From NCBI GenBank assembly GCA_964649705.1, contig CAZYRM010000110.1:1-21703 (forward strand): 21,703 nucleotides of DNA, written 5' to 3'. Source of the DNA: an uncultured Planctomycetia bacterium (GTDB taxonomy: Bacteria; Planctomycetota; MHYJ01; WSZJ01; CAZYRM01). The translations under genes and the position numbers were made by a program. The number at the start of each line of letters is the position of its first letter. Within the stretch, counting starts at the first letter, position 1. Below, in pieces: positions 2,459 to 19,616 of the stretch. The notes under the pieces were generated by a model. It worked only from the letters and a program-made list of their open reading frames with translations. It searched no databases and was not told the origin of the DNA.

Positions 2459-4780
2459 ATGGTTCGAGTCGTCGTTGCCGGGCTGCCCGACATCGCGGTG
2501 TGGCTTGCCCGCCGCTTTCCCGGCGCGACGATGCTCGCTACGTCGACGGTCGAGGAGACACGCTCCGCACTCGCTGAGGGCGAGTGGACGGCGCTCCTCA
2601 TCGACGACCGTCTCGACGGCCAGCCGGGCAAGAGCCTGGTCGAGCGACTTCGCGCGCACCCATGCTACGCCCGTCTCCCCATCCTCTACTGTCTCGCCCA
2701 GCGGCCAGCGGGGGAGCAGGCGAAGCGGCTGGTCGCGGACCTGGGCGTCCACCGGCTCCTCGTTCAGCCCGTGGACCGGGAGGACATCGCGCGCCACATC
2801 GCCTCCCTCGCCAGGGTCCCCCTTCCCCCCACTCTCGAAGCGAGCGAGGTGGACCCGGAAGAGCGCGCCGAGTTGATCGAGATTTGGGAGAAGTACCGCG
2901 ACCAGCGCAGGGAGCGTATCGCGACGCTGGAGCTGGCGACCCTGGCGATCCGCTCGCGCACGCTCGACGCGTCGCTCGCCATGCGTGCGGAGGCCGCAGC
3001 GCACTGGCTCGCGGGCTCGGTCGGCACGTTCGGATATCTGGACGGCACACGCATCGCGCGTTCCCTCGAGCGCGTTTTCAAGGTGCTCGCCCCTTCGGGG
3101 TCGGCCGACGCGGAGCAGGTGGCCGAGCTCCTGGGGGCCCTGCAGGCGGAGCTTTCCCGTCCGCCGCTCGCCGCCACCCCGTCCGCGGCTCCCGCCGGAT
3201 CGATGACGGAGGGGGAGGATGCGCCGTACCTGCTGATCGCCGACGACGACCCGGCCGTGGGAGAGGCGCTGGCGAGGGAGGCGGGTGGGCGGGGCATGCG
3301 AACGACCGTGGCGACCGACATCGCCTCCGCGCGCGAGGCGGCGCGACGGGAACGGCCCTCGGCTGTCGTGCTCGACCTCGCCTTCCCGGGAAACACCGAG
3401 GGCGGCCTGGCCCTTCTGGCGGAGATGGGGTCGATTCAGCCGCCCATCCCGGTCCTGATCCACACTTCGTCGGACGAATTCTCGCACCGGGTCGAGACGG
3501 CGAGGCTCGGCGCGGGAGGGTTCCTGCACAAGCCGCTCTCCCCCGCGGCGGTCCTGACCGAGGTCCAGGGCCTGCTCCAGCGCGTGCGCTCGGCGCAACC
3601 GCACGTCCTCGCCGTGGACGACGACAGCGGCCTGCTGGCCGCCCTTCGCGCCCGCATCCAGGCGCAAGGCGTCCGCGTGACCACGCTCGACGACCCGCTC
3701 CGGTTCTGGGACGTGCTGGAACACGCCTCCCCCGACCTCCTCGTGCTGGACGTGGAGATGCCGCACGTCGGGGGCATCGAGCTCTGCCGCGTCGTGCGGA
3801 ACGACGCCCGATGGTCGAGGCTGCCGGTCCTTTTCCTGACGACCCACGTCGAGCCCGACGTCGTCGAGCGGCTCTTCGCCGCGGGCGCGGACGACTACGT
3901 GACGAAGCCGATCATTGGAGCGGAGCTGATCACGCGGATTCGCAACCGCCTCGACCGCGTCCGCCTGCACCGACGGCTCGCCGAGACCGACTTCCTCACC
4001 GGCGTCTCGAACCGCCAGCGCTCGGGCGAGACCCTCGAGAAGCTCCTGCGACTCGCCGAGCGGCAACGGGCGCCGTTGAGCGTGGGCCTCCTCGACCTGG
4101 ACCGCTTCAAGGACGTGAACGACACGCACGGCCACGCGGCGGGGGACGCCGTCCTCGCCCGTCTCGGGAGGCTGCTGCTGCGCACCTTCCGCGGAGAGGA
4201 CGTCGTCGCGCGGTGGGGCGGGGAGGAGTTCGTCGTCGGCATGTACGGGATGACGAGGAACGACGGCGTGGAGCGGCTCGCGCAGGCGCTCGAGGCCTGG
4301 CGCACGGAGGAATTCGCGGGGAAGGAAGATGCGAAGTTCCACTGCAGTTTCAGCGCGGGGATCTCCCAGTACCCGTGCGACGGGGGGAGCCTTGATGCGC
4401 TGTACCGGGTCGCGGACGAGGCGCTCTACCGGGCGAAGCACGAGGGACGCGACCGGATCGTACCGGCCGGACCAGGAACGGAAGCGGCGGGCGACGACGG
4501 GGCCATCGCCGTCGCCGTCGCGGACGATGCGACGGCCGCGATGGTCCGGCGTGCGCTCGTCACGCGGGGGTACCGCGTGTGGGCCGCGCGCGACCAGGAG
4601 GCGATGCCCCGCGGGAACGGAGCGCGCGTCGCCGTGATCGGCGGCGAGGGGCCGCCCGACGGGCTCGATGCGGCCGCGATCCTGCGGATCGAGAGTCCCG
4701 TGCTCCTGGCCGATGTCGTCAGGCGCGTGAGATTCGCCATGGAGGGGGACCTCCGCCGCGCGATGGCGGAGGCCCCGTAG
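2459..4780 (+). CDS. Multi-receiver response regulator with GGDEF diguanylate cyclase domain (PleD-like; REC-like, REC, REC, GGDEF, then a degenerate REC-like C-terminus)
   Basis: Receiver signatures include LLIADDDPAV…VVLDLAFPG…FLHKPL and HVLAVDDDSG…LLVLDVEMPHVGG…DYVTKPI. The GGDEF domain has the active-site motif RWGGEEFVV plus DLDRFKDVNDTHGH and YRAKHEGRDRIV. Start is placed at ATG 2459 (MVRVVVAGL). An in-frame TTG at 2342 is an alternative. No clear SD sequence is visible. Confidence 0.8.
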   Translation: MVRVVVAGLPDIAVWLARRFPGATMLATSTVEETRSALAEGEWTALLIDDRLDGQPGKSLVERLRAHPCYARLPILYCLAQRPAGEQAKRLVADLGVHRLLVQPVDREDIARHIASLARVPLPPTLEASEVDPEERAELIEIWEKYRDQRRERIATLELATLAIRSRTLDASLAMRAEAAAHWLAGSVGTFGYLDGTRIARSLERVFKVLAPSGSADAEQVAELLGALQAELSRPPLAATPSAAPAGSMTEGEDAPYLLIADDDPAVGEALAREAGGRGMRTTVATDIASAREAARRERPSAVVLDLAFPGNTEGGLALLAEMGSIQPPIPVLIHTSSDEFSHRVETARLGAGGFLHKPLSPAAVLTEVQGLLQRVRSAQPHVLAVDDDSGLLAALRARIQAQGVRVTTLDDPLRFWDVLEHASPDLLVLDVEMPHVGGIELCRVVRNDARWSRLPVLFLTTHVEPDVVERLFAAGADDYVTKPIIGAELITRIRNRLDRVRLHRRLAETDFLTGVSNRQRSGETLEKLLRLAERQRAPLSVGLLDLDRFKDVNDTHGHAAGDAVLARLGRLLLRTFRGEDVVARWGGEEFVVGMYGMTRNDGVERLAQALEAWRTEEFAGKEDAKFHCSFSAGISQYPCDGGSLDALYRVADEALYRAKHEGRDRIVPAGPGTEAAGDDGAIAVAVADDATAAMVRRALVTRGYRVWAARDQEAMPRGNGARVAVIGGEGPPDGLDAAAILRIESPVLLADVVRRVRFAMEGDLRRAMAEAP

Positions 4781-4855
4781 TCGCGCTCTCGAGGCGCACA
4801 CGTCGGCCGCCCCGCGGAAGGGCGGGGGGCCGCACACCGTGGAGGGATGGCCGAG

Positions 4856-5236
4856 ATGCCGAAGATCCTGCTTGTCGAAGACAACGAAATGAACCGCGAC
4901 ATGCTGTCGCGCCGACTCGAACGGCGCGGCTTCCAGGTCTCGATCGCCGTCGACGGCAAGGCGGCCCTCGATCTCGTCCGGACCGAGCTTCCCGACCTGG
5001 TCCTCATGGACATGAACCTCCCCGAGATCGACGGCTGGGAGGCCACCCGACGGCTCAAGGCGGACGAGGCCACGCGCCCGATCCCCGTTCTCGCGCTCAC
5101 CGCGCACGCCATGGCGGGCGACCGGGACAAGGCGCTCGCGGCGGGGGCCGACGACTACGACATCAAGCCGGTCGAGTTCGCGCGCCTCGTGGGGAAGATC
5201 GAGGCTCTCCTGAAGAGGACGCCGCCGAAGGCGTGA
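4856..5236 (+). CDS. Single-domain CheY-like response regulator receiver
   Basis: The translation reads MPKILLVEDNEMNRDML…DLVLMDMNLPEIDGWE…DYDIKPV. GGAGGG at 4841-4846 sits 9-10 nt upstream of ATG 4856. An in-frame ATG at 4847 is too close to the SD sequence to be the start. Stop is TGA at 5234-5236. Confidence 0.88.
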   Translation: MPKILLVEDNEMNRDMLSRRLERRGFQVSIAVDGKAALDLVRTELPDLVLMDMNLPEIDGWEATRRLKADEATRPIPVLALTAHAMAGDRDKALAAGADDYDIKPVEFARLVGKIEALLKRTPPKA

Positions 5237-5273: not shown

Positions 5274-7705
5274 ATGTTGAACGCCCTTCGCCGCGCCCTG
5301 GTCCGCCGACCGATCGTCGCCATCAGCGCGCTCGTCCTCATCGCCGGCGTCGCCATCGTCTTCCTCATGAACCGCCTGGCGACCAACCTCCTGGAGTTCA
5401 AGGCCGCCCGCGACGCGTCCCTCTACTCGACGGCGCTCGCCGAGTTCCGCACGCTCTACACGTCCGAGGTCGTCGCCACCGCCACGGCGAACGGGATCGA
5501 GGTCACCCACGACTACAAGAAGAAGAAGGGGGCCATCCCGCTGCCGGCGACGCTCAGCATGCTGCTGGGCGAAAGGATCGGGGTGCACGAGTCGGGGGCC
5601 GAGAGCCATCTCTATTCCCCGTATCCCTTCCCGTGGCGCGCCGCGGAGGGGGGCTTCGCGACGGGTTCCGCAAGGCGGCCTGGGACCATCTCAACGCGGA
5701 GCCCGAGGGCGCCTACTACCGGTTCGAGACGGTCGGCGGCAGCCCCGTGCTCCGGTACGCCACGGCTGACCGCATGCGGCAGGCGTGCGTGAACTGCCAC
5801 AACTCGCACCCCGACAGCCCGAAGACCGACTGGAAGGAGGGAGACGTCCGCGGCATCCTGGAGGTCGACCTCCCCATGGTGGCGGCGCAGACGGAGACGC
5901 GGAGGGAACTGCTCGGGACGACGGCCCTCCTGGCCGGGATGGCCGCGGTCGGGCTCGGCCTGCTCGCGCTCCTCATCGGCGGGCTGCGGAGGACGTCGAG
6001 CGACCTGGAGACGAACGTTCAGAAGCTCCGCGAAGCGCACGAGCAGCTCAGGGTCAGCTACAACACCGTCGAGGAAACGGTGCGGACGCGGACTTCCGAG
6101 CTTCAGACGAGCATGAACGACCTCGCGCGCGCGAACCAGGCGCTGGACGAGGCGCGGGAGCTTGCCGAGCAGGCGAACCGCACGAAGAGCGCCTTCCTCG
6201 CGAACATGAGCCACGAGCTGCGTACGCCCCTCAACGCGATCATCGGGTACAGCGAGATGCTTCAGGAGGAGATGTCGGGGGAGGGGCGCGACGCGCACGT
6301 CGCCGATGCGGAGAAGATCCGCGCCGCGGGACTCCACCTGCTGCGCCTGATCAACGAGGTGCTCGATCTGTCGAAGATCGAGGCGGGGAAGATGGTGCTC
6401 GCGCCGGAGACGTTTGACGTGGCGCGACTCGTCGATGACGTCGTCAGCACGGTCCGCCCCCTCGCGGAGCAGAACTCGAACCGTCTGATGGTCGAGGTCG
6501 CCCCCGACGCTGGCGACCTCTACGCAGATTTGACGCGGGTACGCCAGACGCTGTTCAACCTCCTCAGCAACGCGTGCAAGTTCACGCGGAACGGCGTGGT
6601 GACGGTGAAGGTCCGCCGGGAGAGCGCCGCGGATGGCGGCTGGATTTCGATGGCGGTCACGGACACCGGCATCGGGATGAGCCCGGAACAGGTCTCGAAG
6701 CTCTTCCAGGAGTTCCAGCAGGCGTCCTCCTCCACCGCGCGCGAATACGGCGGCACGGGATTGGGGCTCGCGATCACGCGCAGGCTCTGCACCCTGATGG
6801 GCGGGGAGGTGACCGTGACGAGCGAGCCGGGGAAGGGCTCCACGTTCACGGTGCGGCTCCCCGTCGCGCGGGAGGCCTCGCCTGCGCGAGAGGAGCCGAT
6901 CGTCGGCGCCTCACCCGCCCTTCGGCACGAAGCCGCTTCCGGACGCAACCTCGTCCTCTCGATCGACGACGAGCCATCGACCCTCGAGCTGCTCTCCCGC
7001 TTCCTGGGCAAGGAGGGCTTCACGATCGTCACGACGACCAGCGGGGTCGAGGGGGTGAACCTCGCACGGAAGCTGTCGCCGATCGCCATCACGCTCGATG
7101 TGATGATGCCCGGGACCGACGGCTGGGAGGTGCTGACGATGCTCAAGAGCGACCCGGCCACCAGGGACATCCCCGTCCTCGTGTTGAGCATTCTCGATCA
7201 GCAGCAGACGGGCTTCGCGCTCGGGGCGTCGCACTACCTCATGAAGCCGATCGACCGCGACGCGCTCGTAGGAGTGCTCGCCCCCTACCGCCGCGTCGAC
7301 GGCGCCGCAAAGGTCCTGGTCGTCGAGGACGACCCCGACAGCCGCGACCTCGCCCGGAGGATCGCGGAGCGGCAAGGCTGGAGCGTCACGGAAGCCGTGA
7401 ACGGGCGCGAGGGACTGGAGCGCATGGTCGAGGTGTCCCCCGACGTCGTCATCCTTGACCTCATGATGCCCGAGCTGGACGGGTTTGAGTTCCTGAAGGA
7501 GATGAGGCGCGAACCGAAGTGGCGCACCGTGCCGGTGATCGTCGTCACCTCGAAGGACCTGACGACGGAGGACCACATGCGCCTGAACAACGGCGTGCTG
7601 AAGATCCTCCAGAAGAGCAAGATCACGAAGGACGACCTGCTGAGCGAGATCCGCGACGCGCTGCATGGACGGATCGCGACCTCCATCCGCCCGCAGGTCT
7701 CGTGA
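5274..7705 (+). CDS. Hybrid sensor histidine kinase: N-terminal TM, periplasmic DUF3365/Tll0287-like heme-c sensor (CxxCH), TM, HisKA, HATPase_c, two REC. It is interrupted by a single-base frameshift in a G6 run (5648-5653), so it is a possible pseudogene or sequencing error
   Basis: Frame 0 (5274..) gives an N-terminal TM helix and the first half of the sensor (…[15 protein letters not shown]). Frame 2 (from 5633) continues seamlessly with [13 protein letters not shown]…YYRFE…[41 protein letters not shown]. That is followed by a TM helix, the H-box [23 protein letters not shown], a HATPase (GGTGLGLAI) and two receiver domains (ITLDVMMPG…YLMKP and [12 protein letters not shown]…). Inserting one G restores a continuous ORF. 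Confidence 0.8.
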
Positions 7706-9372
7706 CGACCGTCGGTCCCGGGCCTCGCCGCCCCGCGCCCAGCGCGACGTGGATCGCCCTGGTCGCTGCGGCCTACGTTGTCACCGGCCGGCTAGGGATC
7801 GCGGCAGCGCTCCAGCAGGTCACTTCTGTCTGGCCCCCGTCGGGTCTTGCCCTCGCCGCGGTCCTCCTCCTCGGTCCGCGCGCGGCGGCCGGGGTGGCCC
7901 TCGGCTCCTTCCTCCTCAATTTCGGCCTCACCTTCGACCGCGCCCGCCCGGTCGCGTCGGTCGCCGTCGTCGCGGCAATGGCGGTCGGGTCGACGATCGA
8001 GTGCCTGGTCGGGCGCGCGCTGCTCCTGCGCTTCGCCCGCGGCGCAGCCTGCCTCGACCGGGCCGCCGACGTCTTCCGCTTCGTGGCGCTGGCAGGGCTA
8101 CTCAGCCCGACGCTCGCAGCGACGATCGGCGCCGCTGCCCTGACCCTGGGAGGCCCGCCCTCGCACCGCGGATTTGGCCCCATCTGGTCCACCTGGTGGA
8201 TCGGGGACGCGGTCGGCGTCTTCGTCGTCGCGCCACTGCTGCTCGCCTGGGCGCGAGAGCCGCGCCTTGCGCGCGACCCCTGGCGCTGGGCGGAGGCCCT
8301 GCTCCTCGGCGGGGCGGTCCTCGCGGTCGCGCTGACTGCGTTCCGCGCCGGCTACCCCGTCGAAACGCTCGCGATCCCGTGTCTGGTCTGGGCCGCCTTC
8401 AGCTTCGGCGCTCGCGGCGCGACTCTGCTCACCGTCGTCCTCGCGGGGATCGCGGTCTGGGGAACCGTCCACGGGCACGGCACCTTCGCCCGGACGACGC
8501 TCGGCGAGTCGCTCGCCTTCCTCCAGACGTTTGTCGGCGTCGTCGCGGTCTCCTCCCTTGCCCTCTGCGCCGTGCTCGCCGAACGCGCGGCCCGGTCCGT
8601 CGACCTCCTCCGCGCCATGGAGGAGTCGACCGCCGCCCGCGTCGCGGCGGAATCGGCCAACCGCGCGAAGACCCTGTTCCTCGCCAATATGAGCCACGAG
8701 CTCCGCACGCCTCTCAACCACATCATCGGGTACGCCGAAATGCTCCAGGAGGACGCGGAGCGGGAAGGGCGCGCGGAGGCCGTGTCAGACCTGAAGAAGG
8801 TCGTCACGTCCGCGCGCTCGCTCCTGGGGGTCCTTCATTCGATCCTCGATGCCGCCCGGCTGGAGGCGGGCACGATCGACCTGACCATCGGCGAGTTCGA
8901 CCTCTCCTCGGTGGTCTACGAGGTGAGGGGCCTGACCCTCCCCCTGGCGGAGGCGAACGGCAACACGCTGGAGGTCCGGGTCGCCAACGGGATTGGCCCT
9001 GTTCGAGGTGACCGGGAGAAGGTGCGCCAGGCCCTCCTCCATGTCGTCGACAACGCGTGCAAATTCACCAGGAACGGCGCAATCTCCGTGGCGGCGTCGC
9101 GGGAGACCTGGGGAGGACGTCCCTGCCTTGCCATCGTCGTGTCGGACACGGGAATCGGGCTGGGTAAGGAGGAGATCGACGGGATCTTCCGTCCGTTCGT
9201 CCAGGTCGACGCCTCCCCCACGCGGCGCTACGGAGGCCTCGGTCTGGGCCTCTCGATCGCACGTCAGTTCCTTCAGATGCTCGACGGGGATCTATCGGTG
9301 ACAAGCGTGCCGGGCCAGGGATCGACGTTCACGCTGCGGCTGCCCGACGGCGTCCTGCCCAGCGGAACCTGA
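7702..9372 (+). CDS. MASE1-domain sensor histidine kinase (HisKA + HATPase_c)
   Basis: A GTG start at 7702 overlaps the upstream TGA (GTGA). The N-terminal polytopic membrane domain has the MASE1 signature (…[34 protein letters not shown]…). The H-box [23 protein letters not shown] is near-identical to that of the upstream kinase. The HATPase region carries DNACKFT…[12 protein letters not shown]…[11 protein letters not shown]. Stop is TGA at 9370-9372. Confidence 0.8.
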
Positions 9373-9557: not shown

Positions 9558-9593
9558 GCCGCGTGGAGAGCGTCGAGGAGGGGAGGCGATGAC
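9558..9593 (+). repeat. 36-bp direct repeat, copy B (gccgcgtggagagcGtcgaggaggggaggcgatgac) at the start of the permease gene
   Basis: It differs from copy A by one mismatch. In one frame it encodes the orphan peptide …RVESVEEGRR*, and its ATGA supplies the ATG of the FtsX permease. Confidence 0.85.
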
Positions 9594-10857
9594 GTTGCGG
9601 AGGTGGCTCAGGGACGTCCGGCTCGGCGTGAAGACGCTGCTCCTGCACAAGCTGCGCTCCTTGCTGACGATGCTCGGCGTGGTGTTCGGCGTGGGGAGCG
9701 TGGTGGCGATGCTGGCGGTGGGGGAGGGGGCGAGCCGCGAGGCGCTGGAGCAGATCCGGAAGCTGGGGAGCCACAACGTCATCGTCACGGCAATGAAGCC
9801 GACCGAGGAGTCGACCTCGAGCACTCAGCGCATGCGGATGCTGATCTACGGGCTGACGTACGAGGACGAGGTGAGGGTCAGGGAGGGGTTCGCGTCGGCG
9901 ACGCGGGTCGTTCCGGCGAAGATCATCCGCAAGGAGGCGAGGCTCGGGGAGCGGACGCTGGAGCTCAGGGTGGTGGGGACGACGCCGGAGTGGTTCGAGC
10001 TGGTGCCTCGGCCGCTGCTGGCGGGGCGGATGCTCCTCGCGTCGGACCGCGAGCAGCGGACGAACGTGGCGGTGCTGACGGAGTACGGCGCGCGGAGGCT
10101 GCTGGCGGCCTCGAACACGCTGGGGCAGGTCCTCAGGGTGGGGACGCACGCCTTCGAGGTGGTGGGGATCGTGCGGAGCGAGGGGGGGCAGGGGAGCAGC
10201 GTGCAGACGCCGGACCAGGAGGTGGACGCCTACATCACGATCGACGTGGCGCGGGCGCGGTTCGGCGACGTGTTCACGAGGATGAGCTCGGGGTCGATGG
10301 AGCGGGAGCAGGTGGAGCTGCACCAGCTCATCGTGGAGGCGCGGTCGCTGGACGAGGTGGAGCCGATGGCCGCGGCGCTGCAGGCGATGTTCGACCGGTT
10401 CCACCCGAAGAAGGACGTGCGGATCAGCGTGCCTCTGGCGCTGCTGCGCCAGGCAGAGGCGACGAAGCGGACGTTCAACATCGTGCTGGGCTCCATCGCG
10501 GGGATCAGCCTGCTGGTGGGCGGGATCGGGATCATGAACATCATGCTGGCGAGCGTGACGGAGCGGACCAAGGAGATCGGGATCCGAAGGGCGATCGGGG
10601 CGAAGCGCAGGCAGATCGTGGGTCAGTTCCTGATCGAGACGGTGGTGCTCTCGTCGATCGGCGGTGTGATGGGGGTGGCGCTCGGGATGGCGATCCCGCG
10701 GGTGATCACATACGCGGCGGGGATGCCGACGGTGGTGACGCCGTGGAGCGTGGCGCTCGCGTTCGGCATCTCGGGGGCGGTGGGAGTCGTCTTCGGCCTG
10801 TACCCCGCGGTGCGCGCCGCGCGCCTGGACCCGATCGAGGCCCTGCGCCACGAGTAG
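9589..10857 (+). CDS. ABC transporter permease, FtsX/MacB family, with a large periplasmic domain
   Basis: ATG at 9589 is preceded by GGAGGGGAGG. The translation MTLRRWLRDVRLGVKTLLLHKLRSLLTMLGVVFGVGSVVAMLAVGEG shows the MacB N-terminal TM1. A periplasmic domain of about 200 aa follows, then three C-terminal TM helices with the FtsX motif (IMNIMLASVTERTKEIGIRRAIGAKRRQI…). The track start at 9490 is an upstream extension. Confidence 0.85.
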   Translation: MTLRRWLRDVRLGVKTLLLHKLRSLLTMLGVVFGVGSVVAMLAVGEGASREALEQIRKLGSHNVIVTAMKPTEESTSSTQRMRMLIYGLTYEDEVRVREGFASATRVVPAKIIRKEARLGERTLELRVVGTTPEWFELVPRPLLAGRMLLASDREQRTNVAVLTEYGARRLLAASNTLGQVLRVGTHAFEVVGIVRSEGGQGSSVQTPDQEVDAYITIDVARARFGDVFTRMSSGSMEREQVELHQLIVEARSLDEVEPMAAALQAMFDRFHPKKDVRISVPLALLRQAEATKRTFNIVLGSIAGISLLVGGIGIMNIMLASVTERTKEIGIRRAIGAKRRQIVGQFLIETVVLSSIGGVMGVALGMAIPRVITYAAGMPTVVTPWSVALAFGISGAVGVVFGLYPAVRAARLDPIEALRHE

Positions 10858-10926: not shown

Positions 10927-12342
10927 CTACTTCTTCCCGAGATCGCCGGCGAGGAGCGGGAGCTTCCCCTTCGGGAGCTGCAGGATGAGGACGTAGCTCG
11001 CCGTGGTCCAGACCGGCCCCATCTCGCGGTCCAGGTTCCTGACGGATCCGAGCCCCGCCGCCGTGGGGTGCGCGCGGAACGCCCCGTCCAGGCATCGCGA
11101 CGAGAGCATCTCCAGGCGGAACACCTCGTTGAACGGCTTCCAGGATGCGCTGCCCAGGTGCGTGCACGCGAGGGCCGACGTCGTGAAGTGCATCACGGGG
11201 GAGATGTGGCTGGTCGGGATCTTGTCGAGCGACCCCTTGAAGAACGAGGACATCTTCGGGAAGAACGGGTGCTTCTGGAGGCCCAGGAGCGAGAACCCCC
11301 ACAGGCACCCCGACGTCCGTCCAGGCTCGCCGTTCCTCTGGCCCGCGCGGTAGCCGATCCCCCCGTCCCCTGGGCTCGCCGAGACCGCGTACGCGACCCC
11401 GCGATCGACCGTCTTCTGCGGGACCTTGAACCCCGCCTTCTTCAACGCCCCGAGCGCGCAGAGGCACCAGTTCCCCGCGATCTGCAGCTCGACGTACTTG
11501 AGCGCGTTCGGCCCGCCCGGCCCGTGCGCCCACCCGCCGCTCGCCTCCTGGCCCCGCTCGATCGCCGCCATGGTCTCCTCGAGCTTCGCCTTCAGCCCGT
11601 CGCTCGGCGCGATCTGGTAGACCTGGCAGAGGAAGATCGCGGTGTAGGCGTACCCCCAGTTCGTCTGGTTCCAGTTCCCCGGCGGGAATCCCGCCAGCTC
11701 CTCGGCCGTCGCCGCCTTGCCGCAGTTCTTCGAGACGAAGTCGACTCCCTTGCGGAGGTTCTCGGCGTACGGCCCCTCCGTCTGCGTGCTCCCTGAGGCG
11801 AGGAGCGCGAGGCAGACGAGGCTGGTCATCACGACTTCGCCGTTCGTGGCGCTGTACCTCGCGTCGTAGCCGCCGTCGCCCCGCTGCTTCGAGGCGATGT
11901 ACTTCAGCGACTCCTCGATCACCTTCTCGCAGCGCGCGCACCCGGTCGGACAGGTCGCGGCATGCGGACCCGGGGAGGGGAGCTCGATCGGGAGGTTCTG
12001 CTTCTTCCCGCCGCGCATGACGAGGAGCGAGAGCTTGGGGTCCTTCTTCGACTGGGCCTTCTCAAGGAGGTCGACGAGCTGGTAGACGAGCAGCGACTTC
12101 GGGTTCGTGAAGGCCTGGGTACCGACGCCCGCGATCACGTCCCCGGGCGCAAGGCCCGCGGCCTTTGCGGGCGCACCCTCCGCGACGGAGGTGACGCGGA
12201 GGCCCCAAGCCCCCCCGGCCAGCCCGTCGCCTCCCTTCTGCGGGAGGCCCTCCGCGCCAAGCGGGCCCAGGTTGAAGGACGGCTCCTCGGCGGCGACGGC
12301 GAGGCAGGAGCAGAGGAGGAGCACGGAGCGCAGGGTTGCCAT
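10927..12342 (-). CDS. Secreted PDZ-domain protein with prenyltransferase/squalene-cyclase-like alpha/alpha-toroid repeats
   Basis: ATG at 12342 has GGAGG 7 nt upstream. A signal peptide MATLRSVLLLCSCLAVAAEE is present. The PDZ region reads GLRVTSVAEGAPAKAAGLAPGDVIAGVG…LLVMRGGKKQNLPIEL. Repeated QxxDGG(W/Y)-type motifs (KQRGDGGYD, QEASGGWAHGPGG, PGDGGIGYRAGQ) are characteristic of prenyltransferase/terpene-cyclase repeats. Stop is TAG at 10927-10929. Confidence 0.7.
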   Translation of the reverse strand: MATLRSVLLLCSCLAVAAEEPSFNLGPLGAEGLPQKGGDGLAGGAWGLRVTSVAEGAPAKAAGLAPGDVIAGVGTQAFTNPKSLLVYQLVDLLEKAQSKKDPKLSLLVMRGGKKQNLPIELPSPGPHAATCPTGCARCEKVIEESLKYIASKQRGDGGYDARYSATNGEVVMTSLVCLALLASGSTQTEGPYAENLRKGVDFVSKNCGKAATAEELAGFPPGNWNQTNWGYAYTAIFLCQVYQIAPSDGLKAKLEETMAAIERGQEASGGWAHGPGGPNALKYVELQIAGNWCLCALGALKKAGFKVPQKTVDRGVAYAVSASPGDGGIGYRAGQRNGEPGRTSGCLWGFSLLGLQKHPFFPKMSSFFKGSLDKIPTSHISPVMHFTTSALACTHLGSASWKPFNEVFRLEMLSSRCLDGAFRAHPTAAGLGSVRNLDREMGPVWTTASYVLILQLPKGKLPLLAGDLGKK

Positions 12343-14156: not shown

Positions 14157-14202
14157 GGAGGCGTGAAGCCGGGAAGAGCGAGATCGCTTTGCTCGCTGTC
14201 CG

Positions 14203-14237
14203 CTGGGAGGGGCTGCAGGGGTCACGGCCCCTCCCAG
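14203..14237. terminator. Perfect 11-bp inverted repeat hairpin (ctgggaggggc-N13-gcccctcccag) downstream of the GNAT gene and upstream of the toxin-antitoxin operon
   Basis: The stem and 13-nt loop can be read directly from the sequence. There is no U-tract, so it could be an intrinsic-terminator-like structure of a high-GC genome or an operator for the downstream toxin-antitoxin promoter. Confidence 0.35.
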
Positions 14238-14306
14238 GTCGCGCGCGCGTGGATGACCTTGGCGGCTCGCGGCCGCGGCTGTAAGATGCAGGCAAAGGAG
14301 GAGCCC

Positions 14307-14504
14307 ATGAATCCCTGGATCATAGAAGAACGCCGCCTCCTGGTGTGTCCGCCCAGCCAGAGGATTACAGTACGGATCGCGCCTGCCACCCCGACGCCGG
14401 AGTCGCGCCATCCCCTTTGTGGCGCCTGGGCGGATGAGCGCCCCGTAGAGGAGATCATCGAGTCGCTCAGGTCGCTGCGACGCCGCCTCTCGGGAGCTCG
14501 GTGA
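14307..14504 (+). CDS. Putative type II antitoxin (VapB-like partner of the downstream PIN toxin), 65 aa
   Basis: AAGGAGGAG SD sequence lies 5 nt upstream of ATG 14307. It is a small protein (MNPWIIEERRLLV…CGAWADERPVEEIIESLRSLRRR). Its stop is 7 nt before the PIN gene start. The assignment rests mainly on position and size, so it is weakly supported. Confidence 0.5.
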   Translation: MNPWIIEERRLLVCPPSQRITVRIAPATPTPESRHPLCGAWADERPVEEIIESLRSLRRRLSGAR

Positions 14505-14510
14505 ACGCCC

Positions 14511-14921
14511 TTGAAGTACCTCTGGGACACGAACACCCTAATCTACTGGCTGAACGGCGACACCCGCGTCGAGGCCCTCCGCCTGCAACGTGGGTCCGAC
14601 AACATCGGCCTGTGCTGGCCGGTTGTCCTGGAATTGGTCCTGTGCACCAGCCAGTCCACGAACGTCGAGCGCAATATCCGGAACGCTGTGGAGGTCATCG
14701 CTGCGTTCCAGCCTATCCTCGAGTCTGACGGCGCCGTGATGGACCGTTTCTGCGCCTTGCGCGCTCAATTCAAGGCGAAGGCGACCCCGAAGCCCGAGAT
14801 GGACGTGCTAATCGCCGCCCACGCCCTCGTTCACGACCTGACGCTCGTCACCTCCAACGGCGCGGACTTCGAAGGCACCCCAGACCTCCGGATCGAGGAT
14901 TGGAGGTCTAGTTCCCGATGA
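14511..14921 (+). CDS. PIN-domain toxin (VapC-like ribonuclease)
   Basis: A TTG start at 14511 gives (M)KYLWDTNTLIYWL. Conserved acidic residues match a PIN domain (DTN…, VVLELV, LVTSNGADF). Its stop overlaps the ATG of the next gene (ATGA at 14918-14921). Local GC is visibly lower than the surrounding DNA. Confidence 0.75.
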   Translation: MKYLWDTNTLIYWLNGDTRVEALRLQRGSDNIGLCWPVVLELVLCTSQSTNVERNIRNAVEVIAAFQPILESDGAVMDRFCALRAQFKAKATPKPEMDVLIAAHALVHDLTLVTSNGADFEGTPDLRIEDWRSSSR

Positions 14922-15703
14922 CAACGACTTCGCGCGAATACGAGCTCTTCACGCAGATCGTCTACCAGGCGCTGGTGCGCGAGGTCCCCGACACCCGGGT
15001 GGAGCACGACGTCCAACTCTCCGATCCCTCCGGGGTCGAGCACCAGGTGGATGTCTATCTTGAGTTCAAGATCGCCGGACACGTCTACCGGACGATCATC
15101 GAATGCAAGCAGTGGACGCGCATGGTAGACGTGGGACCTGTCACCGACTTCTACGGCCTGATCCAGTCCCTGGGCGTCGAGAAGGGGATCATGGTCTCCA
15201 AGCTGGGCTTCAGCGATCCGGCGAGGGAATTCGCGCACGCCAGGGGGATCGACCTCGTCCAACTTCGGAAGCCTAGCGAGGAGGACTTGGAGAGACGCAT
15301 CAAGAGGATGGTCGTCCGTGTCAGCTTCTACATCCCCGAAATCGCCGACGTTGCCCTCGAACCGGCGACGGCTGCAGTGTCGTCTCGGGATCTAGCCGTG
15401 AACACGGGCGAGGCCAGGATTGTGGATGCGGGGTCGGGGCGGGAGGAGACCTTGCAGTCCGTCCTGCAACGAACCCTGCCCAAGGGTTGGCCAGAGGACT
15501 GGCAGACTGTGACGATTCCTCTCGGCGCTGGAACTGTTCTGGCGGTGGGTGGCGAGCGCATACCCGTCTCCGAGCTGCGGTTCCGTGCGAGGTTTCACCG
15601 GGCCGATGAACAGGTACTCCTCGACGGGGAGGCCATCGTCCGCGCGATCCTGCGCGATGTCTTTACCGGCGAGATCCGCACGGTGCGCCGCGTCGGCGCC
15701 TGA
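14918..15703 (+). CDS. Mrr-like restriction endonuclease-fold protein (PD-(D/E)xK nuclease; N-terminal Mrr_cat domain plus an uncharacterised C-terminal domain of about 120 aa)
   Basis: The translation reads YELFTQIVYQAL…HQVDVYLEF…YRTIIECKQWTRMVDVGPVTDFYGLIQSLGVEKGIMVSKLGFSDPAREFA, with a D…E-C-K catalytic triad arrangement. It is translationally coupled to the PIN gene. Stop is TGA at 15701-15703. Confidence 0.72.
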   Translation: MTTTSREYELFTQIVYQALVREVPDTRVEHDVQLSDPSGVEHQVDVYLEFKIAGHVYRTIIECKQWTRMVDVGPVTDFYGLIQSLGVEKGIMVSKLGFSDPAREFAHARGIDLVQLRKPSEEDLERRIKRMVVRVSFYIPEIADVALEPATAAVSSRDLAVNTGEARIVDAGSGREETLQSVLQRTLPKGWPEDWQTVTIPLGAGTVLAVGGERIPVSELRFRARFHRADEQVLLDGEAIVRAILRDVFTGEIRTVRRVGA

Positions 15704-15854
15704 GATTCGCCGAGGGGGGGGACAGGTCGCAGAAGCGGCGGGAAGAGCAGGCCCAACGGGCTCCGCAGGCGAAGCGGGTCTCCGCTGTCGCGTCAGGGCC
15801 GTTCAGTTGGTCGGGGGCCCGGCGGGAAGGGTCCCGGGAAGGACGGTCGCCGCG

Positions 15855-18800
15855 TCACTTCCAGCTCAGGATCATGTCGACGAGCTTCCCCAGGACCGGC
15901 ACGTCCTTCACCGCGCCGAGGATGATGTTCTTCCTGGCCGCCTCGTTGAACGGCCCGCCGCCGACGTGCCCCTCGACGTCCTTCACGGCCGCGTCCAGCC
16001 GCTCCTGGGCACCCTGCTTCCCCTCGATCAGGTCCCCCAGCGCCTCCAGCGCGTTCGCCTCCTTGCGGAACCCCTTGTCGACGTAGTCGATCTCGGCCTG
16101 CAGCATCGCCTGGTGCAGCTTCGACATCCCGGGCGCGCTGCCGGCGATGCTGATCATCCCCTGGATCGCGTCTCCATTGTCCGCGTCCCCGCCCTTCACC
16201 CGGTCCCGCGCGTACCGCATGAGCTGGAGCACGCCGTCCAACCGGTTCAGCGACTCCGAGACCTTCTTCAGCGCGTCGGGCGTCTCGCTCTCTACGCCCG
16301 TCAGGATGCCCGAGAGCTCGCCATACTCGCCCGCCGAGCCCGCCGCGTTCGCCGTCGCCTGGACTCGGTTGCGCCACCAGGTGATCGTGTCCTTCGTCAC
16401 CGGGACGCCCGAGTCGAGCACCGCCGTCCGCGCGCCGACCAGCTCCGCGTGGATCGCCTTGAGCCTCTCCTGGTTCGCCGCGGGGTCCTTCGCGAGTTCC
16501 TCGACCTGTCGAAGCGCCTCGTCCACGCGCAGCCGGTGGACCTGCATCTCGACGGCCGCCTCCACGTGGCGGCAGGCGACCTCGGTCGCGGGGGTAGAGA
16601 CGTGCGCCCCCTTGAGCAGCGTGCGCATGACGCCGATCTGCACGCGCGCGTCGAGGTCCGTCGTCGCGGCGCGCACCTGCTCGAGGATCGCCGCCAGCTT
16701 CCCGAGGAGCTCGTCCTCGCCCGCCTTCTTCCCCTCCTCGTCAGGGACGTAGAGCGGGACGTCGATCTCGCAGACGTTGTTCCCCTCGTCCATCTCCTCC
16801 AGCTTCCCGTCGGCGTCGATCCTGGCCGAGAGCCGCGTGTCGCCCATCTCCAGCGTCCACGACATCGCGTACTTGTTCATGTACCAGTCCTGCACGACCT
16901 TCGGCCTCGCCTCGAACGTCTTCCACTCGCCGGGGCGCCATCCGTCGGCGCCGAAGAGCCTCACGTCGATGGTCCGCTTCCCCTCGCCGCTCTGCGGGTT
17001 CAAGACCGAGAAGCGGACGGAGAGCACGCCGCCCTTCTCCACGGCCTTCCCGACGTTCCGGGCGCGGAGCGTCAGCGTCGTCTCCTCGCCCGGTCTCGGC
17101 ACGGAGGGCTCCACGACGAGCTCCGCGGCGACGAGGTCGGGCTTGTCCTTCTTCGGGGGCACGAGGAACGCCAGCGGGAAGGTCATCGACGCGCGGGCCT
17201 TGTCCACCCGCAGCCGGAGCGTCACCGTTCCCTCGGCGATCTTCTCCAATGGGATCAGCTTCCCCGTCGCGAGCCCCTCGCCCTCCCCCTCGACCGGCAG
17301 GGGCGCGCTGACGACGACCCCGTCCTCGTCGAGCATCCCGACCTCCCCGGCGATCGGCGCGAAGCCGGGAATTCGGACCTCGGCCTCGGGGAAGAGGGTG
17401 GAGAGGGTGATCGAGATGGCCACGCCGCCGATGGCGCCCGCGAGGCTGCCGTCGGTGCCCTGGCTCGTGCGGTACTTCACCTGGAAAGGGAGCCTCAGGG
17501 CGTTGTCGACGATCTCTCCCTCCTTGGGGACAACCGTGCATCGGAGCGTCGCCCAGGCGGAGCGGTCGCCGATGGTCAGCACGCGCGTCTGCGCCCCCGC
17601 GATCGCGCCGAAGCGGCGGAACTCGAGGTCCTCGAGCGCGAAATCGGCGATCGGGTTTCCCGCGCGCTTCCTCAGCTTCCCCTCGCCGTCGTGGAAGTCG
17701 AGTCCCAGGCCTTCGGTGACCCAGGTCAGCGTGTCGCCGGAGGCGTCGTTCCAGAGCTCATCGGCGATGCGCGTGATCCACGCCGTGCCGCAGATCCGGC
17801 CCTCCTCGGGGGTCCGCGGGAGGCGGAAGATCAGCGACCAGATGTTGTCCTCCTCGTCCAACCCGAGGACGCGGTCACGGACGCCGCGTGCCTGGTTGGC
17901 GCGGGCCGCCATCCACGGCGGTGCGTCCTCGCCGGCGGCCTCCATCACGATGTGCGGGCCCCACTCGGACGGCGCGCGGGCCAGGATGCGGAGGCGCGTG
18001 ATCGCGGAGGAGGGGGCGCGATCGGCGCCCAGGCCGAGGAGGGGAGAGGCGAACCCGAGGCGGCCGAGGATGACGGAGGCGTGCCAGCGCGTCTCCGCGT
18101 CGTCGGAGGCGAGGGCGTCACGGAGCGCCTGGAGTGCACTTGCGTCGCCCCTCCGCGCGAGCACCCCGAGCAGGTAGAGGACCACGCCGGGTCCAGGTTT
18201 CCTTTCAAGGGCGGCCATCAAGGGGTCGGGCGTGCCCTCAATTAGCAACCTGGGCCTGGCCAGGGCCCCCTCGGTCGCCAGGCGGAAGATCGCGGCGGCC
18301 GCGGCCGAAGCGACCTCTTTGTCCTCCGAGGCCGTCAATCCGAAGAGCTTGGGAAGGTCCTCTCGCGTCGCGAGGGACTCCAGCGCCCCGAGCGCGACGT
18401 CGGGCCGCTCCGAGCGGGGGGCTTCCTCCGCGAGGACTGGCCAGGCGTCGTGCGCGCGCACGGTCTCAAGACCGGCGTACGCACCGAAGCACGAGTCGCC
18501 CCGAAGGAGTGCCACGAGGTGTTCGCGCATCGTCCCGGGGAGCGCCCGTCGGGGGGGCGGGCCGCCGAATCCAAGGGCCGAGAGCAGGCGGTGGACCTCT
18601 TCGTCGTCGTCGGGGCGGCCGGTGATCTCGGCGCGCAGCTCCTCCGCGGCCCCGACGGCGCCCTCGCTGTCGGCGATGGCGCGCTCGGCGCGCTCGAGAA
18701 CTGCGCGGCGGCGGCGCTCCTCCGCCTGGCCGGCGGCGGCGAGGAGCGGGTCGCGCACGGAGGCCTCGGCGTCCCGCGCCAGCGCCTGCAGAATCCGCGC

Positions 18801-19616
18801 CTCGAGGCCCGGGTCGCCCGCCTCGCGGGCGTCGAGGAGGGCCTGGGGCAGGACGCCGGGCGTACCGCCTGCCTGCGAGAGCAGGAGGCGCGCCTCGGAG
18901 CGTCCCGAGGCGCAGCCGCGTCCGTCGAAGAAGGCGAGCGCCTTTTCCAGCGAGGCGCGGATGGCGGTCGTGTCGGCCGCGTGCGCGTCGAGGCGGAGGC
19001 GCGCCGAGCGGAGGCGCAGCGTAGCGGGCGTCAGGGAGAGCCCGGCCTTCTCGGCCGCCTCGATGGCGGAGTCGAGCGTGTCGGCCGCGGCGACGAGGTC
19101 GAGCCCGCCCTCCTGCAGCGAGGCGGCGGCGATGGCGTCCAGCAGATCGAAGGCGATTTGGACGTCCCGCTCGAAGAAGAGCTGATCGCCGAGCCACTGG
19201 AAGTCCCGCGCCAGGACGGCCGCGTCGAGCACGTCGACGCCGTCGGGCGCGTTCCCCATCACCTCGAGCTGGACGAGGCACGCGGCCTCCAGGCCCACGT
19301 CGCCGGCCGCGGCGGCCTCCCTGGCGGCCTCGGCCATGAGGCGGCCCGCGAGCATCGGCACGTCCTTCCCCTCGGCGGCCCCCGCGGCCTCGGCCTCGTA
19401 TCGGATTTCGGCGAGGTCGCTCAGGCAGCGCGCGGCCTCGGCGTGGAGCCGGTCACGACGCGCGGCCGCGACGCACAGGCGAAGCGTCTCGGTCGCCTCC
19501 GCGACCTGATGGGCGTCTCTCTGATCGGCGGCGAGTCGTCGCTGATCGCGGATCCACGAGGCGGTGTCGGCGGAGGCGACGACGGTAGCGATGAGGAGGA
19601 CGAGGGCGGTGCGCAT
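15855..19616 (-). CDS. Large secreted protein (1253 aa): signal peptide, Ala/Leu-rich helical region, HEAT/PBS-lyase-like repeats, Ig-like CARDB-type domain, C-terminal helical/coiled-coil region
   Basis: ATG at 19616 has AGGAG about 9 nt upstream and gives the signal peptide MRTALVLLIATVVASA. The track's GTG at 19646 adds 10 aa. HEAT-like repeats are visible (…LYLLGVLARRGDASALQALRDALASDDAETRWHASVILGRLG…). A beta-rich segment reads …PDLVAAELVVEPSVPRPGEETTLTLRARNVGKA…MDEGNNVCEIDVPLYV (CARDB-like). Stop is TGA at 15855-15857. Confidence 0.65.
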   Translation of the reverse strand: MRTALVLLIATVVASADTASWIRDQRRLAADQRDAHQVAEATETLRLCVAAARRDRLHAEAARCLSDLAEIRYEAEAAGAAEGKDVPMLAGRLMAEAAREAAAAGDVGLEAACLVQLEVMGNAPDGVDVLDAAVLARDFQWLGDQLFFERDVQIAFDLLDAIAAASLQEGGLDLVAAADTLDSAIEAAEKAGLSLTPATLRLRSARLRLDAHAADTTAIRASLEKALAFFDGRGCASGRSEARLLLSQAGGTPGVLPQALLDAREAGDPGLEARILQALARDAEASVRDPLLAAAGQAEERRRRAVLERAERAIADSEGAVGAAEELRAEITGRPDDDEEVHRLLSALGFGGPPPRRALPGTMREHLVALLRGDSCFGAYAGLETVRAHDAWPVLAEEAPRSERPDVALGALESLATREDLPKLFGLTASEDKEVASAAAAAIFRLATEGALARPRLLIEGTPDPLMAALERKPGPGVVLYLLGVLARRGDASALQALRDALASDDAETRWHASVILGRLGFASPLLGLGADRAPSSAITRLRILARAPSEWGPHIVMEAAGEDAPPWMAARANQARGVRDRVLGLDEEDNIWSLIFRLPRTPEEGRICGTAWITRIADELWNDASGDTLTWVTEGLGLDFHDGEGKLRKRAGNPIADFALEDLEFRRFGAIAGAQTRVLTIGDRSAWATLRCTVVPKEGEIVDNALRLPFQVKYRTSQGTDGSLAGAIGGVAISITLSTLFPEAEVRIPGFAPIAGEVGMLDEDGVVVSAPLPVEGEGEGLATGKLIPLEKIAEGTVTLRLRVDKARASMTFPLAFLVPPKKDKPDLVAAELVVEPSVPRPGEETTLTLRARNVGKAVEKGGVLSVRFSVLNPQSGEGKRTIDVRLFGADGWRPGEWKTFEARPKVVQDWYMNKYAMSWTLEMGDTRLSARIDADGKLEEMDEGNNVCEIDVPLYVPDEEGKKAGEDELLGKLAAILEQVRAATTDLDARVQIGVMRTLLKGAHVSTPATEVACRHVEAAVEMQVHRLRVDEALRQVEELAKDPAANQERLKAIHAELVGARTAVLDSGVPVTKDTITWWRNRVQATANAAGSAGEYGELSGILTGVESETPDALKKVSESLNRLDGVLQLMRYARDRVKGGDADNGDAIQGMISIAGSAPGMSKLHQAMLQAEIDYVDKGFRKEANALEALGDLIEGKQGAQERLDAAVKDVEGHVGGGPFNEAARKNIILGAVKDVPVLGKLVDMILSWK

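What the first reader, a model, noticed from the sequence alone, without database searches (positions are those of the whole stretch)
5630..5660. Frameshift inside a G6 homopolymer splits the sensor domain of the hybrid histidine kinase
Frame 0 reads …[15 protein letters not shown] and then degenerates into Arg/Pro-rich nonsense. Frame 2 from the same spot reads [25 protein letters not shown]…, the natural continuation of a DUF3365-type domain. Adding one G to the run at 5648-5653 gives the continuous …[20 protein letters not shown]…. Either the kinase is a recent pseudogene, a rare event for the main sensor of a cassette, or this is a homopolymer sequencing error. If the frameshift is real, the intact downstream ORF (GTG 5633) would yield a kinase lacking its signal-anchor and half its sensor.
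Basis: seen in the sequence. Interest (0 to 1): 0.55.

Follow-up and report, generated by a model that had tools for sequence, protein, structure and literature searches.

The report
Real one-base frameshift in sensor kinase
A single missing base at a run of six Gs cuts a haem-type (probably nitric-oxide-sensing) histidine kinase gene of an uncultured groundwater bacterium in two; the break recurs in every independent assembly, so it is very probably a real, recent, ordinary gene-inactivating mutation and not a sequencing error.

Summary
G6 lies at 5648-5653. ORF A (5274-5792) and ORF B (5633-7705) are two halves of one 810-aa hybrid histidine kinase: TM1, sCache_heme/DUF3365 with CXXCH, TM2, HisKA, HATPase_c, two REC domains.

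Twenty-four homologues align over the junction without any indel (…PFPWRxxEGGLRD…). This places the lesion at one lost base within 5649-5654, the third position of the Gly127 codon. The ancestral state could be G7, or GGC followed by CTT.

The break is not a random read error. The exact truncated product is on record on 7 contigs. The six fetched come from six samples or runs (Illumina Hainich well H51 replicates and Logan assemblies of other runs), and all carry the identical G6. G7/C7 runs in four other genes of the contig are in frame. No intact allele exists among about 15 billion proteins, and the nearest relative is only 57-60% identical.

Both halves keep GC3 of 0.93-0.97 and all catalytic motifs, so the lesion is recent.

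A -1 slip on G_GGG_GGC would restore the exact conserved sequence. However, the downstream hairpin is unremarkable, homologues have no frameshift and no G-run there, and no length variation is seen.

Verdict: an ordinary recent frameshift pseudogene, fixed in one population. Low interest.

The parts
5274..5654 (+). 5' part of the kinase gene in its native frame, residues 1-127. It holds the signal-anchor TM1 (5310-5369), the long N-terminal helix, helix 91-107 and the first strand of the sCache_heme domain. It ends …[10 protein letters not shown].
   Evidence: The exact 172-aa product (with its nonsense tail) is on record on 7 contigs.
5648..5653 (+). The G6 run. One base is missing within 5649-5654, the third position of the Gly127 codon. 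Formally the run is also an X_XXY_YYZ heptamer, G_GGG_GGC, at 5648-5654.
   Evidence: It is identical in L001-L006.
5655..5792 (+). Out-of-frame tail of ORF A: 45 nonsense codons plus TGA at 5790-5792.
   Evidence: GC3 follows the other frame here.
5654..7705 (+). 3' part of the kinase gene in its native frame, residues 128-810, with stop at 7703-7705. The formal ORF B is open from GTG 5633.
5786..5800 (+). CXXCH c-type haem-binding motif (C172-V-N-C175-H176) of the sCache_heme domain. It lies downstream of the break.
   Evidence: C172, C175 and H176 are invariant in 25 sequences. It sits in helix 170-178 of the model. It is the defining motif of the family (PMC12889525).
5909..5983 (+). Second hydrophobic segment (TM2, residues 213-237) linking the sensor to the cytoplasmic coiled coil.
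   Evidence: Sequence reading, and the continuous helix 203-332 in the model.
6185..6388 (+). HisKA dimerisation/phospho-acceptor domain. The H-box SHELRTPLN is intact; His314 is at 6212-6214.
   Evidence: (69 bits).
6527..6868 (+). HATPase_c catalytic domain. The N, G1 and G2 boxes are intact.
   Evidence: 110 bits.
6947..7651 (+). Two receiver (REC) domains, about 6947-7273 and 7313-7651. These make the protein a hybrid kinase.
   Evidence: (Response_reg, 2 stretches, 145 bits).
5662..5705 (+). Predicted 10-bp-stem hairpin starting 7 nt after the heptamer. It is not distinguishable from background.
   Evidence: -21.8 kcal/mol, equalled or beaten at 17% of 1,500 control positions. The region's z-score is -0.2.
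2459..5236 (+). Upstream partners in the same cassette: an Hpt-REC-GGDEF protein (2459-4780) and a single-domain response regulator (4856-5236).
7702..9372 (+). Second kinase of the cassette (MASE1-HisKA-HATPase_c). Its GTG start overlaps the hybrid kinase's stop (GTGA at 7702-7705).

Best explanation
A genuine one-base deletion at the G-run (ancestrally G7, or GGC followed by CTT) has interrupted the gene for a membrane-bound hybrid histidine kinase. Its extracytoplasmic sensor is a c-haem Cache domain (sCache_heme/DUF3365).

The mutation is fixed, at consensus level, in the one groundwater population where this organism has been sequenced. It is recent, because nothing else in the gene has decayed.

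Expected products (inferred, not shown):
- Ribosomes starting at ATG 5274 make a 172-aa product: TM1, the first part of the sensor and a 45-residue nonsense tail.
- The remainder (haem motif, TM2, kinase core, two receivers) has no convincing start site of its own. Without the signal anchor it could not place the haem-binding half outside the membrane.
- The protein is therefore lost as a sensor, apart from whatever trace of full-length product spontaneous -1 slippage on the G-run gives.
- The cassette keeps a second kinase (MASE1 type), which may make the loss tolerable.
For: - One gene, one break: Pfam PF11845 spans the junction only after repair. The 25-sequence alignment has no indel there, with G127 and D130 invariant and G126 and L128 at least 90% conserved. 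There is a single GC3 phase switch. The AlphaFold model (pLDDT 88.8) puts residues 127/128 in the loop between strand 110-114 and helix 131-142, inside the sensor fold.
- Real, not artefact: the exact 172-aa product is on 7 contigs. The six fetched come from ERZ1292639, ERZ1292634 and ERZ1292641 (Hainich H51 replicates R3, R2, R1) and from Logan assemblies of ERR3858132, SRR32696701 and SRR32696703. All six have the identical G6 and are 100% identical over the gene.
- The contig names match the Hainich data set, which is Illumina NextSeq 2x150 with each replicate assembled separately by metaSPAdes (PMC8672522).
- G7/C7 runs at 1610, 10182, 12210 and 18551 lie in genes that are in frame.
- No intact allele: the repaired 810-aa sequence is absent from about 15 billion proteins, and both fragments are singleton clusters at 90% identity. 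No near-identical junction-spanning protein was found.
- Recent: GC3 is 0.93-0.97 on both sides, and the HisKA, HATPase_c and REC domains all score fully.
- No good restart: three different starts were chosen by gene callers (5747, 5774, 5789).
Against: - No reads were inspected, so a minority G7 sub-population or a systematic error common to all the Illumina runs cannot be formally excluded.
- Coverage is low: 5-8x according to the contig names.
- ERR3858132 may be the raw data of one of the three ERZ assemblies. The provenance of the two SRR runs was not verified. Independence is therefore at least 3 libraries and probably 5, not 7.
- An intact 2 kb downstream frame fits a very recent loss, but it fits continued selection equally well (leaky decoding or reversible switching).
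- No close relative (more than 60% identity) exists to show the ancestral state.
Confidence: 0.72

Rival explanations
1. Sequencing or assembly artefact: the genome really has an intact frame, and one base was dropped at the homopolymer.
For: - The lesion lies at a homopolymer, the classic site of indel errors.
- Coverage is low (cov 5-8 in the contig names).
- Everything else in the gene is intact.
Against: - The identical G6 is found in six separately assembled contigs plus the window, produced by at least two assembly pipelines (the ENA assemblies and Logan).
- The matching data set is Illumina, which is not prone to homopolymer errors at 6-7 nt (the platform's error behaviour is from general knowledge).
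- Four G7/C7 runs in other genes of the same contig are in frame.
Confidence: 0.07
2. Functional recoding or switching.

Either ribosomes slip -1 on G_GGG_GGC (5648-5654) and so make the full-length kinase at a set low level, as in 'compensatory' frameshifting on the G-run of herpes simplex thymidine kinase mutants. Or the G-run is a reversible slipped-strand ON/OFF switch (phase variation).
For: - A -1 slip on this heptamer yields exactly the conserved …AEGGLRD… with the right residue count.
- A 10-bp-stem hairpin starts 7 nt downstream.
- The downstream 2 kb is undecayed.
- Low-level frameshift suppression at many sites, 1-10% in aggregate, has been measured in E. coli (PMC10861913).
- The G7±1 precedent is described in PMC5009743.
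Against: - The hairpin is ordinary for this 70% G+C sequence. 17% of 1,500 control positions do as well, and the region's z-score is -0.2.
- No Rfam frameshift element matches.
- No homologue has a frameshift at this point.
- The seven homologous loci read at DNA level have no G-run longer than 3 there.
- From general knowledge, GGG as the YYY triplet is not a canonical slippery codon, and the GGAGG overlapping the site is not at the roughly 10-nt spacing that stimulates -1 shifts.
- For phase variation, G6 is shorter than typical contingency tracts (general knowledge), it is one of 15 G/C runs of at least 6 in the window, and all seven sequences show the same length.
Confidence: 0.09
3. A functional split gene: the two ORFs are translated separately, and either reassemble or work independently. 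For example, a truncated, signal-blind kinase might restart at the GTGA stop/start overlap at 5789-5792.
For: - ORF A's TGA (5790-5792) overlaps an in-frame GTG of ORF B (5789), a typical coupling arrangement.
- One gene caller started ORF B there (L005 and L006).
- The kinase core and receivers are intact.
Against: - The break lies inside a compact fold, and the N-terminal fragment carries 45 residues of nonsense.
- A restart at 5789 would delete C172 of the CXXCH motif.
- No homologue is organised as two ORFs.
- Without TM1 the remaining extracytoplasmic piece has no export signal (inference).
- Three gene callers disagree on the start.
Confidence: 0.05

Closest known systems
sCache_heme (DUF3365 / Tll0287-like, PF11845) sensor histidine kinases, proposed nitric-oxide sensors (Deshpande et al. 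2026 preprint, PMC12889525)
   Same: - PF11845 match above the Pfam threshold.
- Strictly conserved CXXCH.
- Sensor flanked by two hydrophobic segments.
- Fused to HisKA and HATPase_c.
   Different: - Here the sensor-coding region is interrupted by a frameshift.
- The protein also carries two C-terminal receiver domains, which most of the closest homologues lack according to the Pfam columns.
- Haem or NO binding was not tested.
Frameshift pseudogenes at short homopolymer runs in bacterial genomes (a general category; own knowledge)
   Same: - A single-base indel at a mononucleotide run.
- Both halves are still recognisable and undecayed.
- Homologues are intact.
   Different: Nothing essential. 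The unusual points are only that the break is documented in several environmental assemblies and that no intact allele is on record.
Herpes simplex virus thymidine kinase G7±1 mutants, with low-level compensatory ribosomal frameshifting on the G-run (reviewed in Atkins et al. 2016, PMC5009743)
   Same: An indel in a G-run. A slip on the same run would restore the native protein sequence.
   Different: That case is a eukaryotic virus under drug selection with measured frameshifting. Here there is no measurement and no evidence of selection for a leaky allele.
Poly-G/poly-C phase-variable contingency genes of Neisseria, Haemophilus and Campylobacter (own knowledge)
   Same: A homopolymeric G tract inside the 5' part of a coding region, where a ±1 change toggles the reading frame.
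   Different: - The tract has only 6 G.
- No length polymorphism is seen among seven sequences.
- The tract is not conserved in homologues.
- The gene is a cytoplasmic-membrane sensor kinase of a free-living groundwater bacterium, not a surface antigen.

Membership tests
sCache_heme / DUF3365 / Tll0287-like sensor domain (PF11845) | Profile match above Pfam's gathering score | tested here: met
   The repaired protein scores 52.7 bits against a cut-off of 24.1, over residues 71-201. ORF B alone scores 45.2 bits.
sCache_heme / DUF3365 / Tll0287-like sensor domain (PF11845) | Canonical CXXCH c-haem motif | tested here: met
   C172-VN-C175-H176, encoded at window 5786-5800, is invariant in 25 aligned sequences. 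The motif is 99% conserved in the family (PMC12889525).
sCache_heme / DUF3365 / Tll0287-like sensor domain (PF11845) | Extracytoplasmic position between two transmembrane segments | tested here: met
   Hydrophobic stretches at residues 13-32 and 213-237 were read from the sequence and are helical in the model. No dedicated topology predictor was run.
sCache_heme / DUF3365 / Tll0287-like sensor domain (PF11845) | Cache-like fold | tested here: inconclusive
   The model has pLDDT 88.8. The Foldseek pdb search gave only weak hits: GSU0935 haem-c sensor 3b42 (E 1e-2, probability 0.89), CHASE4, CitA and DctB. Tll0287 (5B82) was not among the 50 matches listed. A phmmer search of the PDB found nothing.
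sCache_heme / DUF3365 / Tll0287-like sensor domain (PF11845) | Covalent haem c, and NO binding | not testable with these tools
   This needs a biochemical test.
Hybrid histidine kinase (HisKA type) | HisKA with phospho-acceptor His, HATPase_c, and fused receiver domain(s) | tested here: met
   HisKA 69 bits, HATPase_c 110 bits, Response_reg 145 bits in two stretches. The H-box SHELRTPLN is present.
Hybrid histidine kinase (HisKA type) | One uninterrupted reading frame | tested here: not met
   There is a frame change at 5649-5654.
Programmed -1 ribosomal frameshift site | Slippery heptamer X_XXY_YYZ in the zero frame | tested here: inconclusive
   G_GGG_GGC at 5648-5654 fits the pattern formally. 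From general knowledge, YYY = GGG is not among the efficient slippery triplets.
Programmed -1 ribosomal frameshift site | Downstream stimulatory structure that stands out from background | tested here: not met
   The hairpin at 5662-5705 has -21.8 kcal/mol, equalled at 17% of control positions. The region's z-score is -0.2. No Rfam element matches.
Programmed -1 ribosomal frameshift site | Frameshift and slippery site conserved among homologues | tested here: not met
   None of the 24 aligned homologues, and none of about 90 further homologues, is broken at this point. Seven homologous loci read at DNA level have no G-run longer than 3 there.
Phase-variable contingency locus (simple-sequence repeat) | Tract-length polymorphism between samples or cells | tested here: not met
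   G6 is present in the window and in all six fetched contigs. This is at consensus level only; minority variants would need the reads.
Phase-variable contingency locus (simple-sequence repeat) | Unusually long repeat tract relative to the genome | tested here: not met
   It is one of 15 G/C runs of at least 6 nt in 21.7 kb. Longer runs (G7, G8) occur elsewhere in the window.
Homopolymer sequencing error | Not reproducible across independent libraries, or confined to an indel-prone platform | tested here: not met
   The G6 is reproduced in at least 3 replicate libraries and further runs. The platform is Illumina. G7/C7 runs elsewhere are in frame.

The most novel reading that the evidence does not exclude
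The G-run is not a dead lesion but a working device. Low-level -1 ribosomal slippage on G_GGG_GGC, or reversible G6/G7 slipped-strand switching, would set or toggle the amount of a full-length haem-based (NO-type) sensor kinase in a free-living aquifer bacterium. That would explain why the downstream 2 kb is undecayed and why only the 'broken' allele is ever seen.
Probability: 0.06. Interest if true: 0.5.

Novelty: new member of a known kind. Interest (0 to 1): 0.14.

Why it matters
The main value is for annotation. The two ORFs (172 aa and about 652-690 aa) should be merged and flagged as one frameshifted sCache_heme hybrid histidine kinase, not as two proteins.

The case also shows that a homopolymer frameshift in a metagenome-assembled contig can be judged real without the reads, by checking whether the exact truncated product recurs in independent assemblies.

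Biologically it suggests that this population has recently lost, or strongly down-tuned, one of two kinases feeding an Hpt-REC-GGDEF / response-regulator cassette. This is a small, ordinary step of regulatory gene loss. It would become interesting only if the G-run proved to be decoded or switched on purpose.

Tried and rejected
- **Population dN/dS across the break.** Impossible, because all contigs are 100% identical over the gene. L003's 26 differences all lie outside the kinase: one in the Hpt-REC-GGDEF gene (4554) and 25 at the 3' end of the FtsX gene (10587-10848). L001's 'gap' is a run of 10 N.
- **Search for an intact allele.** The exact look-up of the repaired protein found nothing. 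A short junction-centred protein search found only the truncated product as a near-identical hit. A DNA pattern with a variable-length G-run found nothing in JGI metagenome contigs.
- **Search for close relatives.** The GTDB species genomes gave at best 51% identity, in a Latescibacterota MAG, so the ancestral codon cannot be inferred.
- **A recurrent break in other organisms.** P0211 and P0212 are simply fragments that end near the junction. P0153 (L030) is a half-domain in a different gene context, not a frameshift at this site.
- **A second pseudogene at 14163-14921.** These two same-frame ORFs are a small upstream ORF with no Pfam hit followed by a PIN-domain protein, probably a toxin-antitoxin pair.
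- **Sequence search of the PDB with the sensor domain.** No hit.
- **Provenance of SRR32696701 and SRR32696703.** Not found, because no supplementary files are held for the paper. It is plausible but unverified that they are the 2022 NovaSeq re-sampling, PRJNA1236243.
Full report
**1. The observation**

The window reads …CCG TGG CGC GCC GCG GAG GGG GGC TTC GCG… in the frame of the ATG at 5274. The G-run is exactly 5648-5653.
- ORF A (5274-5792, 172 aa) reads …[15 protein letters not shown]. It then runs through 45 Arg/Pro/Ser/Thr-rich codons to TGA 5790-5792.
- ORF B (5633-7705, 690 aa) lies in the -1 frame. From 5654 it reads [25 protein letters not shown]….

**2. Two halves of one gene**

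After one base is inserted, the 810-aa product has this domain order:
- hydrophobic segment 13-32;
- PF11845 (Tll0287-like/DUF3365) over residues 71-201, matching profile positions 34-144 at 52.7 bits, so the match runs straight across the junction at 127/128;
- hydrophobic segment 213-237;
- HisKA, HATPase_c and two Response_reg domains.

ORF B alone matches only profile positions 76-144, and ORF A alone gives no PF11845 hit.

The consensus is [20 protein letters not shown]. G127 and D130 are invariant, G126 and L128 are at least 90% conserved, and C172, C175 and H176 (CXXCH) are invariant.

A codon-position GC plot shows a single clean phase switch at about 5580-5650. GC3 is 0.93-1.00 just before it and 0.93-0.97 after it. 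No other unexplained phase switch occurs in the 21.7 kb.

An AlphaFold model built from the alignment (mean pLDDT 88.8) places residues 127/128 in the loop between strand 110-114 and helix 131-142. The haem motif lies in helix 170-178, so the break falls inside the sensor fold.

**3. Position and nature of the lesion**

Frame 0 agrees with the homologues up to G127, and the -1 frame agrees from L128. The missing base is therefore the third position of the Gly127 codon, within 5649-5654.
- GGC-CTT with one C lost is another and gives the same protein.
- Gly codon usage in the window is 44% GGC and 39% GGG, so usage does not decide between them.
- Slippage in a 7-nt run is the more likely mutational route. 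This is inference.
- A two-base insertion is unlikely, because G127 is invariant and G126 is conserved in at least 90% of the sequences.

**4. Real or artefact**

The exact 172-aa truncated product is on record on 7 contigs. The six that could be fetched are:
- ENA assemblies Hain_H51_02um_R1, R2 and R3 (ERZ1292641, ERZ1292634, ERZ1292639);
- Logan assemblies of ERR3858132, SRR32696701 and SRR32696703.

All six carry GAGGGGGGCTT and are 100% identical to the window over the kinase.

The contig names match the Hainich Critical Zone Exploratory data set. That set comprises 32 filter replicates sequenced on Illumina NextSeq 500 (2x150), each assembled separately with metaSPAdes (PMC8672522). A later campaign in 2022 used NovaSeq (PMC12960796). 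Whether the two SRR runs belong to it could not be verified.

The window itself is a whole 21,703-bp contig held by NCBI. G7 or C7 runs at 1610, 10182, 12210 and 18551 sit in genes that stay in frame, so runs of this length were read correctly elsewhere in the same contig. A random or platform-typical homopolymer error is therefore unlikely.

Caveats:
- Coverage is low (5-8x).
- ERR3858132 may be the raw data behind one of the ERZ assemblies.
- No reads were inspected.

**5. No intact allele, no close relative**
- The repaired 810-aa sequence is not among about 15 billion proteins, and both fragments are singleton clusters at 90% identity.
- The best homologues are 57-60% identical.
- A junction-centred query found no near-identical protein that spans the break.
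- A DNA pattern allowing 4-9 bases at the run found nothing in JGI metagenomes.
- GTDB species genomes hold nothing closer than 51%.
- The only taxonomic hint is a Planctomycetota MAG protein in the same 90% cluster as the neighbouring FtsX permease.

**6. Age of the lesion**

There are no secondary lesions. The HisKA H-box, the HATPase_c boxes and both receivers score as intact domains, and codon bias is undiminished. The deletion is either recent, or the downstream frame is still under selection. These data cannot separate the two.

**7. Consequences (inferred)**

The family is now described as sCache_heme, an extracytoplasmic Cache domain with covalently bound c-haem. When fused to signalling modules, it behaves as a nitric-oxide sensor rather than an oxygen sensor (PMC12889525).
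- The frameshift leaves TM1 and the first part of the fold on a 172-aa product with a nonsense tail.
- The remainder has no convincing start. GTG 5633 has no purine-rich motif upstream, and the gene callers on record chose GTG 5747, ATG 5774 or GTG 5789.
- The GTG at 5789 overlaps ORF A's stop (GTGA), but a restart there would remove C172 of the haem motif.
- Without the signal anchor, the haem-binding half could not be exported for haem attachment. This follows from general knowledge of c-type cytochrome maturation.
- The kinase's stop overlaps the start of the next gene, a MASE1 kinase (GTGA at 7702-7705), so a polar effect on that gene is possible.

**8. Rival explanations**

*Programmed or compensatory -1 frameshifting.* G_GGG_GGC (5648-5654) fits X_XXY_YYZ formally, and a -1 slip would give exactly …AEGGLRD…. 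That property is automatic for a deletion inside a run. Against this reading:
- The hairpin at 5662-5705 (spacer 7 nt, -21.8 kcal/mol) is matched at 17% of 1,500 control positions, and the region's z-score is -0.2.
- Rfam has no match.
- No homologue is frameshifted at this point.
- The seven homologous loci read at DNA level have no G-run longer than 3 at this site.

Trace suppression remains plausible, given measurements in E. coli (PMC10861913) and the herpes simplex thymidine kinase G-run precedent (PMC5009743).

*Phase variation.* The tract is short, it is one of 15 G/C runs of at least 6 nt in the window, and its length is invariant in seven sequences.

*Functional split gene.* There is no precedent among the homologues, and the cut lies inside the fold.

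**9. Context**

The gene sits in a signalling cassette flanked by MacAB-type exporter genes:
- membrane-fusion protein (to 1583) and ABC ATPase (1580-2314);
- Hpt-REC-GGDEF (2459-4780);
- single REC response regulator (4856-5236);
- the frameshifted hybrid kinase;
- MASE1 kinase (7702-9372);
- MacB/FtsX permease (9589-10857).

Because a second kinase is present, calling the broken one the 'main sensor' is not justified.

**10. Verdict**

This is a correctly observed, real and recent one-base frameshift that inactivates a sCache_heme hybrid histidine kinase in one uncultured groundwater population. It is a new instance of a very familiar kind of event. Interest is low. The only reading that would raise it, deliberate decoding or switching at the G-run, has no positive support.

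Noticed in passing
window 15855-19646 (-): A 1,263-aa ORF with very strong codon bias (GC3 0.9-0.98) and no Pfam match at E <= 1e-4. It is a large protein of unknown family.
   Followed up: partly
window 19730-21616 (-): A 628-aa protein combining an N-terminal SPFH/Band 7 domain with a C-terminal Ser/Thr protein kinase domain. This is an uncommon fusion.
   Followed up: partly
window 14163-15703 (+): A small ORF (14163-14504, no Pfam hit) is followed by a PIN-domain protein (14511-14921), which looks like a VapBC-type toxin-antitoxin pair. An Mrr_cat restriction-endonuclease-like protein follows (14918-15703). GC3 is lower here (0.72-0.88) than in the rest of the contig, hinting at a mobile or defence islet.
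   Followed up: partly
window 5789-5792 and 7702-7705: There are two GTGA stop/start overlaps. At 5789-5792, ORF A's out-of-frame stop overlaps an in-frame GTG of the kinase, inside the CXXCH-coding stretch. At 7702-7705, the kinase's stop overlaps the GTG start of the MASE1 kinase, suggesting translational coupling of the two kinases.
   Followed up: partly
L003 9392-9653 = window 10587-10848: The last ~260 bp of the aligned part of contig L003 differ from the window at 25 positions in the FtsX permease gene. 24 are synonymous and one changes Pro385 to Ala. The other 9.4 kb differ at a single position (4554, Ala to Glu in the GGDEF protein). This points to a second strain or paralogue joined in the assembly, and shows purifying selection on that gene.
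   Followed up: partly
whole window: G/C homopolymers of at least 6 nt are strongly depleted: 15 observed against about 53 ± 7 in mononucleotide shuffles. The longest, a G8, lies between genes at 15714-15721.
   Followed up: no
L030 576-1106 (ENA ERZ1758402, JX_forest scaffold): In an unrelated organism, a 176-aa protein carries only the C-terminal half of an sCache_heme domain (from …GGPHD… onward, including CXXCH and a TM segment) behind an unrelated N-terminus. No N-terminal half is present upstream. It is possibly a domain remnant or a different architecture.
   Followed up: partly
window 10927-12342 (-): A 471-aa protein matches DUF6288 over its full length and has an N-terminal PDZ domain. 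The function of the family is unknown.
   Followed up: no
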